From contig JAHKLY010000002.1 of assembly GCA_020854825.1 (NCBI GenBank), positions 31,487 to 95,486 on the forward strand: a DNA stretch of 64,000 nucleotides, written 5' to 3'. Below, in pieces: positions 29,565 through 61,790 of the stretch. The notes beneath the pieces were generated by a model. It saw only the letters and a list, made by a program, of their open reading frames with translations, was not told where the DNA came from and did not search any database. The translations under genes were made by a program, and so were the position numbers. The first letter of the stretch is position 1; each line of letters opens with the position of its first letter. The stretch comes from Candidatus Micrarchaeota archaeon. GTDB lineage: Archaea > Micrarchaeota > Micrarchaeia > Anstonellales > JAHKLY01.

Positions 29565-29620
29565 CTTTTTCTTTCTTTTTAAAAAGAAAGAAAAACGTTA
29601 ACGAAAAAGAAAAGAAACAA
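29565..29620. repeat. orphan copy of a polypyrimidine/polypurine palindromic element (TTTCTTTCTTTTT|AAAAAGAAAGAAA + ...AACGAAAAAGAAAAGAAA) also found in two tRNA introns
   Basis: Perfect 26-bp palindrome at 29568..29593. About 55 bp aligns with 43851..43905 and with the minus strand of about 30040..30112. Confidence 0.5.
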
Positions 29621-29741
29621 AAAGAAAGAAAAATAAAGGAAAAAAATAAAACTTTAATGAAAAAGAGTATTTTAGTAGAGTTATAAAAAAGAAATTAAAA
29701 GCAACAAAAGAACTTTCTGATTTAGCAAATGAGATATTAAG

Positions 29742-30014
29742 TTAATCATCGTTTTTCATGCTTTCTAATGCGCTTAAAATAGTCCAAATTTGAGTTCTTG
29801 CATGTGAAGGAATATTTATATCTTCTGCTATCTCTTCAAGAGAATAAACAACTGCGCCAATTTTTAAAGTAGCATCTTCATTTGTTTTTAATCTTTTTTT
29901 AGCATCTGTAATTGTTTTTCTAATATTTTTTGGAATAGAAGTATCTTCTTCAATTTCATCCATAATATCTATAATATCATTAAGATTAATTTCTGTCATA
30001 TTCACCACCCTCAC
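29742..30014 (-). CDS. small conserved archaeal protein (UPF0147-like)
   Basis: 90 aa, acidic/helical. IPKNIRKTITDAKKRL...IPSHARTQIWTILSALE is a pattern I associate with the UPF0147 family. Recalled from memory, not verified. Confidence 0.35.
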   Translation of the reverse strand: MRVVNMTEINLNDIIDIMDEIEEDTSIPKNIRKTITDAKKRLKTNEDATLKIGAVVYSLEEIAEDINIPSHARTQIWTILSALESMKNDD

Positions 30015-30543: not shown

Positions 30544-32322
30544 TTACATTTTTTCTAATTCTGTTAAGCCTAATAAATTCATTCCTGTTTTAAGAGTTTC
30601 TGCTGTTTTTTCTAAAATTAATAATCTAAAGTTCTGTGCATCCTTATTTTCTTCTTTAAGAACAGAAACAGCGCTGTAAAAACTTGCAAATTCAGATGAA
30701 GTGCGCAATAAGTAATCACATATTTGATGTGGTTTTAATTCGTCTGCAGATTTTTCAATAATTTCTGAAAATTCTGATAGTAAAAGTAATAGTTTTTTTT
30801 CAGTATCATTTATTTTAATATTTTGTATATCTATCTTGAATGTTGGTTTTTTCTTTTTGAGAATACTTTTACATCTTACATAGGAGTACATAACATAGGG
30901 TGCAGAATCACCTTCTAAACTTAAAGCTTCCTCCCAATCAAAAGCAATTTTAGTTTCAGGTGCATATTTTAAAATGTAAAAGATCATTGAGTTAGTTGCT
31001 ATTGTTTTTGCTATTTTTTTATCTTCACAGTTTTTTTCTAATGCTTTTTCTATTCCTTGTTCAATAAAATCATCTACTGAATATCCTATCCATGTTCCTT
31101 TTCTTCCTGAAAATTTAATATTTTTTAAAGTGACTTGTTCATAAGTTAAATGATGATAATTTTCTGATTGTTTTGTATAACCCATTTGATTTAAACTATG
31201 TTTAACTACTTTTTGAGGATAAATTTGTTCATTGCCAATCACATTTACTATTTTATCTGCTTTAATTTTTTTCTTAGAACCTTTTTTATTGGTCATATAT
31301 GCAATTTTTTTAGAGGGTTGTGTCATAAATTTAGAAAAATTAAAATCACTTTTTAATAAACCAAATTTCCACATGTGAAAAATAATGTCTTTCCCAGTAT
31401 AGGTTGCAATTCCATTACTTCTTATTAAAATTTTATCTGGATTTTTCATTTTATCAAATTCTTTCCCAGACATTTTTATCACATAACATCCGTTATTCTC
31501 TCCAGTTTTTTCTAAATGAATTATTTTATTTTCTTTTAAGTGTTTGATTCCTTCATTAAAAATAGTATTCATTATATCTGATTCAAATACTAATATTTCG
31601 TGTTCAATATTGAAATTAAAACCAGTTTCCCATTGTGCTTTAACACATTTTTCACTTATTTCTCTTGCTTTTTTTGATATTTTTTCGTCTCCTTGTTCTA
31701 ATTTATGTAATAGTTCTTCTATTTCTTTTTTGATATTGGGATCTTCTGTTTTTAAAGCAACTTTAACATATTCTCTTCCCATCCATTGATCAAATTTAAG
31801 ATTACTATCTGGTTTATTATTTAAGTTTAGAATTCCCCATAAACTTTGTGCAACCTGTAATCCTAAATCATCAATATAATCCATTCTAATAACATCATAT
31901 CCTGAATATGACATTAAATTTGATACTGAATTTCCTAATACTGCATTTCTAAAGTGTCCTATATGCCATGGTTTATTTGGATTAACTGAAGGGAATTCAA
32001 TTATCACTGTTTTTTTATTTTTTTTATTTTTTTCTTTATTTTTCAAAACTTCTTCAAAAAAATTATTTGAAAAATAGATATTGATGTATGGGCCAATACA
32101 GTCTATTTTTTCAATATTTTTATCTTTTAATTCATTACTTATTTTTTTTGCTATTAAATTAGGATTTGTTTTATCTTTTTTAGCAATAGAAAAAGCGATA
32201 GTACACGCTAGATCGCCAAATGAACTTTTTGGTTTTTCTAAAGAGGAATAACATATTGGATAGTCTAAATTAGTAATTTTATTTAGTTTTATCGCTATTG
32301 TTTCCTTTATTTTAGTATACAT
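30544..32322 (-). CDS. argS: arginyl-tRNA synthetase
   Basis: HIGH motif (PNKPWHIGHFRNAVLG). N-terminal Arg-tRNA-synthetase additional domain. C-terminal DALR-like helical domain. 592 aa. Confidence 0.85.
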   Translation of the reverse strand: MYTKIKETIAIKLNKITNLDYPICYSSLEKPKSSFGDLACTIAFSIAKKDKTNPNLIAKKISNELKDKNIEKIDCIGPYINIYFSNNFFEEVLKNKEKNKKNKKTVIIEFPSVNPNKPWHIGHFRNAVLGNSVSNLMSYSGYDVIRMDYIDDLGLQVAQSLWGILNLNNKPDSNLKFDQWMGREYVKVALKTEDPNIKKEIEELLHKLEQGDEKISKKAREISEKCVKAQWETGFNFNIEHEILVFESDIMNTIFNEGIKHLKENKIIHLEKTGENNGCYVIKMSGKEFDKMKNPDKILIRSNGIATYTGKDIIFHMWKFGLLKSDFNFSKFMTQPSKKIAYMTNKKGSKKKIKADKIVNVIGNEQIYPQKVVKHSLNQMGYTKQSENYHHLTYEQVTLKNIKFSGRKGTWIGYSVDDFIEQGIEKALEKNCEDKKIAKTIATNSMIFYILKYAPETKIAFDWEEALSLEGDSAPYVMYSYVRCKSILKKKKPTFKIDIQNIKINDTEKKLLLLLSEFSEIIEKSADELKPHQICDYLLRTSSEFASFYSAVSVLKEENKDAQNFRLLILEKTAETLKTGMNLLGLTELEKM

Positions 32323-33847: not shown

Positions 33848-34006
33848 TTACTTTTTCTTTGTAGTTTTTTTCTTTGTTGTTGTTTTTTTAACTGCAGTTT
33901 TTTTTGTTGCAGGTTTTTTCTTTACTGTTTTTTTCTTTGTTGTTGTTTTTTTAACTGCAGTTTTTTTTGTTGCAGTTTTCTTTTTTGCACATTTTTTTAC
34001 AACCAT
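33848..34006 (-). CDS. 52-aa Lys/Thr-rich basic repeat protein (histone H1/Hc1-tail-like), putative nucleic-acid binding
   Basis: ATG(34006)..TAA(33848) encodes MVVKKCAKKKTATKKTAVKKTTTKKKTVKKKPATKKTAVKKTTTKKKTTKKK. It contains a tandem KKTAVKKTTTKKK repeat produced by a direct DNA repeat. Confidence 0.35.
   Translation of the reverse strand: MVVKKCAKKKTATKKTAVKKTTTKKKTVKKKPATKKTAVKKTTTKKKTTKKK
33865..33975. repeat. two 48-bp direct repeats (period 63 bp), T-rich on the + strand
   Basis: tttttttctttgttgttgtttttttaactgcagttttttttgttgcag occurs at 33865..33912 and again at 33928..33975. Confidence 0.6.
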
Positions 34007-43712: not shown

Positions 43713-43790
43713 TTCTTTTTTTAAATAAAAATGTTTAAAACGGCTACATTTATAAAGGGTTTCTAACCTTAAAATAATAGTTTTGTAATT

Positions 43791-43959
43791 GCAGGGCTGA
43801 CAGATCGGCTATGTGTTCGGCTGCAGACCGAAATAGGGGGGTTCGAATGATCTTTTTCTTTCTTTTGAGAAAAGAAAGAAAAACCTCAACGAAAAAGAAA
43901 GAAAATGAGGTTTCTTAAAAAAAGGAAGAAACAGGAAAGAACAACTCCCTCGCCCTGCT
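43791..43959 (+). tRNA. tRNA-Cys(GCA) with an about 98-nt intron in the T-arm (after the T-loop)
   Basis: GCAGGGC-TG-ACAG-ATCGGCT-ATGT-G-TTCGG-CTGCAGA-CCGAA-ATAG-GGGGG-TTCGAAT[intron]CCCTC-GCCCTGC-T. Perfect 7-bp acceptor and 5-bp anticodon stems. Anticodon GCA. TATA-like TTTATAAA about 35 bp upstream and an oligo-T after the 3' end. Confidence 0.6.
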
Positions 43960-44061
43960 TTTTTAGGTATGTACTCAAAAAATCAAAGAAGAACCTTTTT
44001 AAATATTCTTATATTAAGATAAACTATAAGAGTACTTATTTTTAACCAATCAGGTGATTAT

Positions 44062-61724: not shown

Positions 61725-61790
61725 CGCTCAGTCCGCTCGTCAATCCTCATTGGCTTGCGCCTTAGTGATCACCTTCGTCCTCATTGCGAT
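61725..61790 (-). ncRNA. candidate box C/D-like sRNA or structured 5' leader, upstream of the membrane-paralog operon
   Basis: Minus strand: AUCGC-AAUGAGGA-[12 nt CGAAGGUGAUCA]-CUAA-GGCGCAAGCC-AAUGAGGA-[12 nt UUGACGAGCGGA]-CUGA-GCG. Two C-like boxes (UGAGGA variant of UGAUGA), D'/D boxes, two 12-nt spacers, terminal CGC/GCG stem. It is the only GC-rich intergenic island in the window. Confidence 0.3.

What the first reader, a model, noticed from the sequence alone, without database searches (positions are those of the whole stretch)
43791..43959. tRNA-Cys(GCA) interrupted by an about 98-nt intron in the T-arm
The locus reads as acceptor GCAGGGC/GCCCTGC (7/7 bp), anticodon stem TTCGG/CCGAA with loop CTGCAGA (GCA), and T-stem GGGGG followed by an intact TTCGAAT loop. 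Then come 98 nt of polypyrimidine/polypurine-rich sequence before the 3' T-stem strand CCCTC and the acceptor. An intron at the T-loop/T-stem junction (position about 59-61) is non-canonical. A TATA-like box (TTTATAAA) lies about 35 bp upstream and oligo-T follows the gene.
Basis: seen in the sequence. Interest (0 to 1): 0.65.

Follow-up and report, generated by a model that had tools for sequence, protein, structure and literature searches.

The report
Split tRNA-Cys gene with T-loop intron
This is a real cysteine tRNA gene of a tiny DPANN archaeon (Micrarchaeota), interrupted in its T-loop by a 98-base intron of a known archaeal type, and the intron carries an unusual conserved pyrimidine/purine/mirror-purine element that recurs around tRNA genes in this lineage.

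Summary
Removing 98 nt from 43791-43959 gives a 71-nt tRNA-Cys(GCA). It is identical to the uninterrupted tRNA-Cys at the same syntenic position in the closest relative found. That ortholog and bulge-helix-bulge (BHB) geometry place the intron at 43847-43944, tRNA position 58/59.

The BHB has a central helix GUUC/GAAC, 3-nt bulges GA|A and AA|C, and an outer helix formed by a register-shifted T-stem. Two further relatives have the same intron at the same site, 84 and 68 nt long.

The organism is a Micrarchaeota archaeon. In ARMAN-2, of the same phylum, a tRNA-Cys(GCA) T-loop intron (59/60, 13 nt) is cleaved in vitro by the epsilon-2 endonuclease. As an intron this is therefore a new member of a known kind.

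The new part is the payload: a pyrimidine tract, its Watson-Crick purine partner, and a second purine tract that mirrors the first. This is an intrastrand-triplex signature. It covaries across lineages and recurs in 37/38 introns, 58/59 introns and tRNA 3' trailers. It also occurs in a second disrupted gene in this window, tRNA-Arg(TCT).

The parts
43750..43757 (.). TATA-like box TTTATAAA (palindromic), 33 nt upstream of the tRNA 5' end and 38-45 nt from the start codon of the divergent CBS-domain gene
   Evidence: The block GGCTAYATTTATAAAGRGTTT is conserved in L006, L007 and L010. Its direction of use was not determined.
43791..43846 (+). 5' exon of tRNA-Cys(GCA): tRNA positions 1-58 (acceptor 5' strand, D-arm, anticodon arm with GCA, 4-nt variable region, T-stem 5' strand, T-loop UUCGA)
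   Evidence: ARAGORN on the spliced sequence. Identical to L006 2326-2381.
43847..43944 (+). 98-nt BHB intron at tRNA position 58/59
   Evidence: This is the only strict 3-4-3 BHB geometry that restores a tRNA. The boundaries are fixed by the intronless ortholog L006. Homologous introns lie at the same site in L007 (84 nt) and L010 (68 nt).
43945..43959 (+). 3' exon: T-loop CU (59-60), T-stem 3' strand CCCUC, acceptor 3' strand GCCCUGC, discriminator U73. No CCA is encoded.
43836..43840 (+). BHB outer helix h, 5' strand GGGGG. It pairs with UCCCU 43946-43950, which is the T-stem shifted by one register.
   Evidence: h = 5 bp. The enforced cloverleaf+BHB fold has -45.8 kcal/mol against an MFE of -49.3.
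43841..43847 (+). BHB central helix 5' strand GUUC (43841-44) and the 5' bulge G A | A (43845-47). Cleavage falls after A43846.
   Evidence: GTTC followed by a bulge of RA plus one nucleotide is conserved in L007 and L010.
43939..43945 (+). BHB central helix 3' strand GAAC (43939-42) and the 3' bulge A A | C (43943-45). Cleavage falls after A43944.
   Evidence: AGAACAA|CTCCCTC is invariant in window, L007 and L010, while the intron interior diverges.
43851..43883 (+). Module hairpin 1: pyrimidine tract Y UCUUUUUCUUUCUUUU (43851-66), loop GAG, purine tract R1 AAAAGAAAGAAAAA (43870-83). The stem is 14 bp and perfect.
   Evidence: (I2)
43884..43910 (+). Module hairpin 2: stem CCUCA/UGAGG enclosing R2 AAAAAGAAAGAAAA (43892-43905). 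R2 is the mirror image of R1, which equals the parallel complement of Y.
   Evidence: Hairpin 2 stems by inspection: window CCUCA/UGAGG and L010 UCCCA/UGGGA differ by two compensatory pairs.
43917..43938 (+). R3: a third purine tract, AAAAAAAGGAAGAAACAGGAAA. It is Watson-Crick complementary to Y, with G-U pairs and one bulge. The Y:R3 pairing closes the intron as the inner helix h' next to the BHB.
   Evidence: MFE and constrained folds. The equivalent Y:R3 pairing in L007 was read from the sequence.
43959..43964 (+). Oligo-T run (U73 plus TTTTT): an archaeal-type terminator signal
   Evidence: Conserved after the gene in L006, L007 and L010.

Best explanation
This is the functional tRNA-Cys(GCA) gene of a Micrarchaeota (DPANN) archaeon, interrupted by a 98-nt archaeal bulge-helix-bulge (BHB) intron at T-loop position 58/59.

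Proposed mechanism, with shown and inferred steps marked:
1. The gene is transcribed from an upstream A/T-rich promoter and terminated at the oligo-T run. This is inferred.
2. The pre-tRNA T-arm refolds into an alternative structure. GGGGG (43836-40) pairs one register out with UCCCU (43946-50). G53-U54-U55-C56 pairs with the intron's GAAC (43939-42). Two 3-nt bulges are exposed. This is shown in the sequence and is 3.5 kcal/mol above the MFE.
3. The tRNA-splicing endonuclease cuts after the second nucleotide of each bulge (43846|47 and 43944|45). By lineage it is most likely the broad-specificity epsilon-2 type known from ARMAN-2. This is inferred. No EndA gene lies in this window.
4. An RtcB-type ligase joins the exons to give a 71-nt tRNA with T-loop UUCGACU, and the intron is probably released as a circle. 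This is inferred from established archaeal splicing.

The intron interior is a lineage-wide module, not filler. It consists of a pyrimidine tract Y, its antiparallel purine complement R1 (hairpin 1), a mirror-image purine tract R2 held in the loop of hairpin 2, and a further complement R3 that closes the intron next to the BHB.
For: - In-silico splicing gives an ARAGORN tRNA-Cys(GCA).
- The product spliced at 43846/43945 is 71/71 identical to the uninterrupted syntenic tRNA-Cys of the closest relative, L006 (relatedness).
- That junction is the only strict 3-4-3 BHB that restores a tRNA: h 5 bp, H GUUC/GAAC.
- The same BHB rule predicts both introns of L007 and L010 and the single intron of L016. 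Each prediction yields a 71-nt tRNA-Cys.
- The exons and the BHB-forming intron end AGAACAA are invariant in three species, while the intron interior diverges and varies in length: 98, 84 and 68 nt.
- Synteny NrdD-NrdG-CBS-tRNACys-PsmB-aCPSF1 is conserved.
- The locus is identical in three assemblies.
- The organism is Micrarchaeota.
- ARMAN-2 pre-tRNA-Cys(GCA), with a T-loop intron at 59/60, is cleaved in vitro by epsilon-2 EndA (PMC3239211; PMC12397907).
- U73 and GCA, the canonical tRNA-Cys identity elements (own knowledge), are intact.
Against: - There are no RNA data. Splicing is inferred only.
- The inner helix h' is imperfect next to the 5' bulge: one U-A pair, then G.A and A.A mismatches before the long Y:R3 helix. 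The 5' site is therefore relaxed and needs a broad-specificity enzyme.
- The unconstrained MFE prefers a competing 8-bp helix that buries the BHB.
- The intron contains a T5 run (43853-57), which could act as an archaeal termination signal inside the gene.
- No EndA gene was found among the roughly 50 window ORFs scanned or in the fetched loci (a weak test).
- The rest of the genome could not be checked for a second, intact tRNA-Cys.
Confidence: 0.88

Rival explanations
1. This is a tRNA-Cys pseudogene. A repetitive polypyrimidine/polypurine element inserted into the T-loop and inactivated the gene, and a second intact tRNA-Cys elsewhere does the work.
For: The same module occurs outside tRNA exons: a standalone copy at 29566-29640 and copies in tRNA 3' trailers. 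It therefore behaves like a dispersed element. ARAGORN and Rfam do not recognise the gene. The whole genome was not available.
Against: The exons are 100% identical to the intact ortholog despite about 11% aCPSF1 and 35% CBS protein divergence. The insertion is flanked by an exact BHB. The interrupted state is retained with intact exons in three species. The upstream A/T box and the oligo-T run are conserved. Each related MAG in the genome scan shows a single tRNA-Cys of this type, except one MAG with two.
Confidence: 0.05
2. One reading: the intron lies at the T-loop/T-stem junction (59/60 or 60/61), leaving the loop TTCGAAT.
For: Deleting 43849-43946 or 43848-43945 also gives an ARAGORN tRNA-Cys.
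Against: No helix can form at those boundaries: H would be TTCG/AACA or TCGA/ACAA (read; absent from the list). The intronless ortholog has TTCGACT, not TTCGAAT. In L007 and L010 the conserved BHB gives TTCAA|CT.
Confidence: 0.02
3. The intron is spliced, but its interior is only a selfish or neutral spreading intron family, like the 'transposing' introns of Thermoproteales. Under this view the Y/R tracts matter only because Y:R pairing provides the inner BHB helix, and the mirror tract has no structural role.
For: Similar introns occur at different positions and in different tRNAs: Cys 37/38, Cys 58/59, Arg 29/30 and 58/59, Lys and Arg 37/38. This is the pattern described for Thermoproteales (PMC4090602). 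Y:R3 does form h'. Gain and loss are rapid within one genus-level clade.
Against: Neutral drift or replication does not generate mirror repeats. In 19 of 23 Y-tract loci the second purine tract matches the parallel complement of Y better than the antiparallel one (2 the other way, 2 ties). It covaries with Y and R1 between orthologs. The window holds 4 modules against 0 in 200 Markov-1 nulls.
Confidence: 0.45

Closest known systems
ARMAN-2 (Candidatus Micrarchaeum acidiphilum) pre-tRNA-Cys(GCA) T-loop intron, cleaved by the epsilon-2 splicing endonuclease (Fujishima et al. 2011, PMC3239211; Hirata et al. 2012, PMC3488258; PMC12397907)
   Same: Same phylum, same tRNA (Cys, GCA), and an intron inside the T-loop. 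Both use a BHB-type junction whose 5' site is relaxed.
   Different: ARMAN-2 has 13 nt at 59/60, described as hBH/BHL. This locus has 98 nt at 58/59, with both 3-nt bulges and a 4-bp central helix formed through a register-shifted T-stem, and a structured payload. Cleavage here is untested.
Non-canonical and multiple BHB introns of Thermoproteales, and their 'transposing' intron families (Sugahara 2008 and Fujishima 2010, as summarised in PMC4090602 and PMC4033280)
   Same: Introns at non-canonical positions, including 29/30 and T-loop sites. Related intron sequences are shared between different positions and different tRNAs. Gain and loss are rapid among close relatives.
   Different: A different phylum (DPANN, 28% G+C). 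The shared intron core here is a homopyrimidine/homopurine module with a mirror repeat. I found no description of this for Thermoproteales introns in the papers searched.
BHB introns that carry a functional RNA: the box C/D sRNA in the tRNA-Trp intron of Haloferax and other Euryarchaeota (cited in PMC4090602)
   Same: An intron excised by EndA that contains a conserved structured RNA rather than random spacer.
   Different: No C/D boxes are present here. AUGAUC at 43847-52 is only a partial C-box match and there is no D box. The intron position is 58/59, not 37/38. The payload is a Y-R-R(mirror) module of unknown function.
Intrastrand triplex motifs and H-DNA mirror repeats in prokaryotic genomes, e.g. 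TMECO, a Y-loop-R-loop-R motif (Holder et al. 2015, PMC4666352)
   Same: Three consecutive blocks on one strand: a pyrimidine block, its purine complement, and a second purine block. This arrangement is compatible with a purine-motif (antiparallel, reverse-Hoogsteen) triplex.
   Different: The known motifs are bacterial, G/C-rich and studied as DNA, have loops of 1-6 nt, and are linked to genome instability. The motif here is archaeal and A/U-rich, with a second linker of 8-17 nt that often forms a hairpin stem. It sits inside transcribed tRNA introns and trailers in a fixed orientation.

Membership tests
Archaeal BHB tRNA intron (non-canonical position) | Removing the intron restores a canonical cloverleaf tRNA | tested here: met
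   ARAGORN calls a 71-nt tRNA-Cys(GCA). It is identical to the intronless ortholog L006.
Archaeal BHB tRNA intron (non-canonical position) | Two 3-nt bulges separated by a 4-bp helix at the exon-intron junctions, with the cut after the second bulge nucleotide | tested here: met
   H is GUUC/GAAC, the bulges are GA|A and AA|C, and the outer helix is 5 bp. The same rule reproduces the canonical 37/38 introns of L007, L010 and L016.
Archaeal BHB tRNA intron (non-canonical position) | Inner helix h' directly flanking the 5' bulge (strict hBHBh') | tested here: inconclusive
   Only one U-A pair adjoins the bulge. Two mismatches follow, then a helix of about 16 bp (Y:R3). h' is 0-1 bp in L007 and L010. 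The motif is relaxed at the 5' site.
Archaeal BHB tRNA intron (non-canonical position) | The host encodes a splicing endonuclease able to cut relaxed or non-canonical BHBs (epsilon-2 or (alpha-beta)2) and an RtcB ligase | not testable with these tools
   No EndA Pfam hit among the roughly 50 window ORFs scanned. Nothing was found in the fetched loci with a recalled M. jannaschii EndA probe. Lineage-level inference only, from ARMAN-2.
Archaeal BHB tRNA intron (non-canonical position) | Spliced mature tRNA observed | not testable with these tools
   No RNA data are available.
Box C/D sRNA-bearing tRNA intron | C (RUGAUGA) and D (CUGA) boxes with a 10-12 nt guide | tested here: not met
   Sequence inspection. 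No snoRNA or sRNA family reached significance in Rfam.
Group I / group II intron | Ribozyme core recognisable by covariance models, size over about 200 nt | tested here: not met
   The intron is 98 nt. There were no Rfam hits.
Intrastrand triplex motif (Y-R-R, purine motif) | The third block is the mirror of the second (antiparallel A.A-U / G.G-C register), with a stem of at least 8 | tested here: met
   R1 is AAAAGAAAGAAAAA and R2 is AAAAAGAAAGAAAA. The mirror match is 14 nt against 13 for the direct match. Across loci the second tract favours the parallel complement of Y in 19, the antiparallel in 2, with 2 ties. The window has 4 modules against 0 in 200 nulls.
Intrastrand triplex motif (Y-R-R, purine motif) | Short loops (1-6 nt) between the blocks, as in the ITxF definition | tested here: not met
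   The first loop is 3-4 nt. The R1-R2 linker is 8-17 nt (8 nt in the window, CCUCAACG) (definition from PMC4666352).
Intrastrand triplex motif (Y-R-R, purine motif) | Triplex actually forms (CD, NMR, melting, footprint) | not testable with these tools
   ViennaRNA does not model base triples. RNA purine-motif triplexes are reported as disfavoured in vitro (Semerad & Maher 1994, cited in PMC7583470).

The most novel reading that the evidence does not exclude
The 98-nt intron may be a vehicle for a previously undescribed, lineage-wide structured element of Micrarchaeota and Iainarchaeota. The element is a pyrimidine tract, its Watson-Crick purine partner, and a mirror-image purine tract presented from a second hairpin. 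Together they would fold into an extended (9-14 triple) intramolecular purine-motif triple helix, with A.A-U and G.G-C triples antiparallel to R1. On the opposite strand the same DNA would give a U.A-U / C+.G-C triplex.

The element is delivered from tRNA transcripts in three ways: a 37/38 intron, a 58/59 intron or a 3' trailer. It would then be released by EndA or RNase Z, possibly as a stable circular RNA. If it forms as RNA, it would be the first long natural purine-motif RNA triplex that I am aware of. It would also be a new payload class for archaeal tRNA introns.
Probability: 0.3. Interest if true: 0.78.

Novelty: new variant of a known kind. Interest (0 to 1): 0.5.

Why it matters
- **tRNA detection.** Standard tRNA finders (ARAGORN, Rfam) see no tRNA at all in this 64-kb window, although it holds two. 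In such DPANN genomes the tRNA complement, and the completeness estimates that depend on it, will be badly undercounted.
- **Intron dynamics.** The locus shows intron dynamics at fine scale. There is an apparently precise loss in the closest relative, and 37/38 introns are gained or lost among species that share 87-93% PsmB identity.
- **A testable covariation.** The intron interior shows a three-way covariation (Y, R1, mirror R2) that ordinary base pairing cannot explain. This makes one question directly testable: do long purine-motif triple helices exist in natural RNAs, or is this a DNA-level H-DNA-like signal? It also prompts the question of why tRNA genes carry the element.

Tried and rejected
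- **tRNA finders on raw sequence.** ARAGORN with anticodon-loop intron options, and Rfam at gathering score and at E<=10, do not detect the gene. ARAGORN hits at lowered thresholds elsewhere in the window are spurious.
No pairing is possible there, so this was rejected.
- **C/D-box or H/ACA payload.** There are only weak, non-significant Rfam hits on the minus strand (E 0.2-0.3, far below gathering score). Rejected.
- **EndA in the window.** A Pfam scan of about 50 ORFs found none. A phmmer probe with an M. jannaschii EndA sequence recalled from memory found nothing in any fetched locus. This test is weak and says nothing about the genome.
- **ARMAN-2 pre-tRNA-Cys sequence.** I tried to obtain it from supplementary files for a direct alignment. 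It is not held as text.
- **Strict BHB for the two introns of the window's tRNA-Arg.** None was found. Only relaxed versions exist, with a 3-bp H plus one mismatch.
- **Other dispersed copies.** An exact-ish pattern search for the hairpin found only the tRNA-Cys copy. The looser custom scan was needed to find the others.
- **Literature.** Searches for a described triplex or mirror motif in archaeal tRNA introns found nothing.

Full report
**1. Observation**

The sequence at 43791-43959 reads as the first-stage reader described:
- Acceptor GCAGGGC/GCCCTGC, 7/7.
- A D-arm (ACA/TGT plus a G.A pair).
- Anticodon arm TTCGG-CTGCAGA-CCGAA.
- A 4-nt variable region, then GGGGG-TTCGA..., about 98 nt of homopyrimidine/homopurine sequence, then ...CTCCCTC.
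- The acceptor 3' strand, U73 and an oligo-T run.

ARAGORN finds no tRNA in the whole window. Rfam finds nothing at gathering score, and it does not find a tRNA even at E<=10 in this region. After 98 nt are removed, ARAGORN calls a 71-nt tRNA-Cys(GCA). The locus is 100% identical in three separate ENA assemblies, and two short Logan contigs break inside the intron. It is therefore not an assembly artefact.

**2. Organism and context**

The window has 28% G+C. The flanking genes are:
- NrdD and NrdG.
- A CBS-domain protein on the minus strand.
- The proteasome beta subunit.
- aCPSF1.

These come, the Pfam columns. The proteasome beta subunit is 100% identical to a protein that NCBI names 'Candidatus Micrarchaeota archaeon', and all close homologues are Micrarchaeota. 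The host is therefore a DPANN archaeon of the ARMAN-2 phylum.

**3. Where the intron really is**

Three relatives keep the same gene order.
- **L006** (GCA_015657915.1) is the closest to the window by three proteins: 93%, 89% and 65% identity. It has an uninterrupted tRNA-Cys with T-loop TTCGACT.
- The window's gene becomes 71/71 identical to L006 only if the 5' exon ends at A43846 and the 3' exon starts at C43945.

I calibrated the archaeal BHB rule on the canonical 37/38 introns of L010, L007 and L016. In that rule the cut falls after the second nucleotide of each 3-nt bulge, and the bulges are separated by 4 bp. Applied here, this junction is the only one that both satisfies the geometry and restores a tRNA:
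- Outer helix GGGGG (43836-40) with UCCCU (43946-50).
- Central helix GUUC (43841-44) with GAAC (43939-42).
- Bulges GA|A and AA|C.

The outer helix is the T-stem slipped by one register. The cloverleaf+BHB fold costs 3.5 kcal/mol relative to the MFE (-45.8 against -49.3).

The inner helix is imperfect next to the 5' bulge: one U-A pair, then two mismatches, then a helix of about 16 bp. The 5' site is therefore relaxed. This fits a broad-specificity endonuclease rather than a strict alpha4 or alpha'2 enzyme.

**4. Conservation**

- **L007** (GCA_041653315.1) has the T-loop intron at the same site (84 nt).
- **L010** has it at the same site too (68 nt).
- Both keep GUUC...AGAACAA|CU, while the interior has diverged.
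- Both also carry a canonical 37/38 intron (65 nt and 31 nt) that the window lacks.
- BHB-guided double splicing yields 71-nt tRNA-Cys in both.

The window groups with intronless L006. The simplest history is an ancestral 58/59 intron that was precisely lost in the L006 lineage. Intron content is fluid within this genus-level clade.

A scan of GTDB species genomes and JGI metagenomes with a D-arm/anticodon pattern found about 35 Micrarchaeota-type tRNA-Cys genes. Most are intronless, several have 37/38 introns, and only this clade has the 58/59 intron.

**5. What is known**

- In ARMAN-2, pre-tRNA-Cys(GCA) has a 13-nt intron at 59/60 with a relaxed hBH motif. It is cleaved in vitro by the three-unit epsilon-2 endonuclease (PMC3239211; PMC12397907).
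- Non-canonical positions, including 29/30, 53/54, 56/57 and 59/60, are established in Archaea.
- Families of similar introns shared between positions and tRNAs are also established (PMC4090602; PMC4033280).

As a tRNA intron, this is therefore a new member of a known kind. It sits at a neighbouring position and is much longer, with both bulges present.

**6. The intron interior is not filler**

The intron contains four tracts:
- Y: UCUUUUUCUUUCUUUU.
- R1: AAAAGAAAGAAAAA, a perfect 14-bp hairpin partner of Y.
- R2: AAAAAGAAAGAAAA, in the loop of a CCUCA/UGAGG hairpin.
- R3: pairs with Y to close the intron.

R2 is R1 read backwards, which equals the parallel complement of Y.

The same architecture recurs in these places:
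- The T-loop introns of L007 and L010.
- The 37/38 introns of tRNA-Cys in L007, L014, L016, L018, L043 and L055.
- The 37/38 introns of tRNA-Lys and tRNA-Arg in L018, L017 and L049.
- Directly 3' of intronless tRNA-Cys genes in L015, L030, L032, L038, L040, L048 and L052.
- Both introns of a second disrupted gene in this window, tRNA-Arg(TCT).
- One standalone copy at 29566-29640.

Two automated tests address the mirror relation:
- In hairpins with pure Y/R arms, the downstream tract matches the mirror of R1 better than a direct copy in 15 cases, against 2 the other way.
- Starting from Y tracts, the first purine tract is usually the antiparallel complement. The second is better explained as the parallel complement in 19 of 23 loci, with 2 opposite and 2 ties.

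Orthologous pairs change all three tracts together. L014 has T5CT3 / A3GA5 / A5GA.., and L016 has T3CT4 / A4GA3 / A3GA4. The L017/L049 pair behaves the same way.

The window has 4 such modules. None appeared in 200 first-order Markov randomisations.

A mirror repeat cannot arise from Watson-Crick pairing or from copying. It is the classical signature of triplex potential. On the tRNA-sense strand this would be the purine motif, with R2 antiparallel to R1 and A.A-U / G.G-C triples. On the opposite strand it would be the pyrimidine motif (definitions in PMC7583470; PMC13541005).

Bacterial Y-R-R 'intrastrand triplex motifs' are a DNA-level precedent (PMC4666352). I found no description of such an element in archaeal tRNA introns.

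In every intron case the orientation is Y-R1-R2 in the tRNA sense. That could reflect RNA function. It could equally reflect avoidance of several U-runs that would terminate transcription. Whether the triplex forms, and whether as RNA or DNA, cannot be decided here. RNA purine-motif triplexes are reported to be disfavoured in vitro.

**7. Mechanism and confidence**

I am 88% confident that this is the organism's functional tRNA-Cys gene and that EndA and a ligase splice it at 43846/47 and 43944/45.
- **Shown:** the sequence, the structural compatibility and the comparative support.
- **Inferred:** the enzymology, from the lineage.

The pseudogene alternative (5%) is disfavoured by perfect exon conservation, the exact BHB and retention of the intron in three species.

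The reading that the payload is a functional triplex-forming element gets about 30%. The competing view gets about 45%: a spreading intron family in which Y:R pairing merely supplies the inner helix. That view leaves the mirror covariation unexplained.

**8. Verdict**

The intron type is known, and the payload makes it a new variant worth a bench test. Interest: 0.5.

Noticed in passing
window 30233-30025 (minus strand): A second disrupted tRNA gene: tRNA-Arg(TCT), just downstream of the arginyl-tRNA synthetase gene (30544-32322, minus strand). Two introns are proposed: 65 nt at 29/30 (30202-30138) and 69 nt at 58/59 (30108-30040). Each carries a Y-R1-R2(mirror) module. ARAGORN accepts the 76-nt in-silico spliced product. 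Only relaxed BHBs (3-bp central helix plus one mismatch) could be drawn, and ARAGORN and Rfam miss the gene on raw sequence.
   Followed up: partly
window 29566-29640 (+): A standalone copy of the module (TTTTTCTTTCTTTTT/AAAAAGAAAGAAAAA hairpin followed by two more purine tracts). It lies in the intergenic region between the convergent PolD-DP2 gene (ends 29508) and the UPF0147 gene (29742-30014, minus strand). On either strand it supplies T-runs, so it may act as a bidirectional terminator.
   Followed up: partly
L015, L030, L032, L038, L040, L048, L052 (immediately 3' of tRNA-Cys): In another Micrarchaeota clade the same module sits 2-4 nt after the discriminator of an intronless tRNA-Cys, as a 3' trailer rather than an intron. 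Within this one orthologous set the A-run lengths around the G take four different states. In each state R2 mirrors R1. In L040 R1 is missing, but R2 is still the parallel complement of Y.
   Followed up: partly
L017 5197-5250 and L049 (orthologous): A module lies directly upstream of a tRNA-Lys(TTT) gene but on the opposite strand. In the tRNA-sense strand it would read as the pyrimidine-motif version (Y2...Y-loop-R). This is the only case seen in that orientation relative to a tRNA.
   Followed up: no
window ~61727-61790 (minus strand): A G+C-rich island (57% in 40 nt, against 28% for the window) in an intergenic region. On the minus strand it reads AUGAGGA-12 nt-...-AUGAGGA-12 nt-CUGA, a box C/D sRNA-like layout, with a TATA-like TTTATAAA upstream. 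Rfam does not call it.
   Followed up: no
window 33850-33990: A tandemly repeated T-rich low-complexity stretch (units such as CTTTGTTGTTGTTTTTTTAACTGCAGTTTTTTTTGTTGCAG) in a 537-nt stretch with no called ORF. The opposite strand may encode a lysine-rich peptide.
   Followed up: no
L006 and L007, upstream NrdD genes: The anaerobic ribonucleotide reductase NrdD of the relatives is 1480 and 1953 aa, with intein and LAGLIDADG Pfam hits. The window's NrdD ORF is 764 aa with no such insert. Intein content therefore varies in this clade, as tRNA intron content does.
   Followed up: no
L030 and L033 (same MAG, JBGQMB01): Two tRNA-Cys copies occur in one MAG. The L030 copy has an A7.A66 mismatch in the acceptor stem and a 3' module. 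The L033 copy is cut at the contig end.
   Followed up: no
L023 and L034, tRNA-Cys 37/38 introns: A different, module-free family of about 42-nt introns contains CTGA and GATGA-like boxes (e.g. ...CTTTTCTGAGGC...CCGATGACCGG...). This may be a circularly permuted C/D-box arrangement.
   Followed up: no
L018 / L035, tRNA-Cys: A very long interruption after the anticodon (over 150 nt) in a Bilamarchaeaceae MAG. It contains a module whose Y and R1 tracts are separated by an extra inserted hairpin-rich segment. The 3' end of the gene was not resolved.
   Followed up: no
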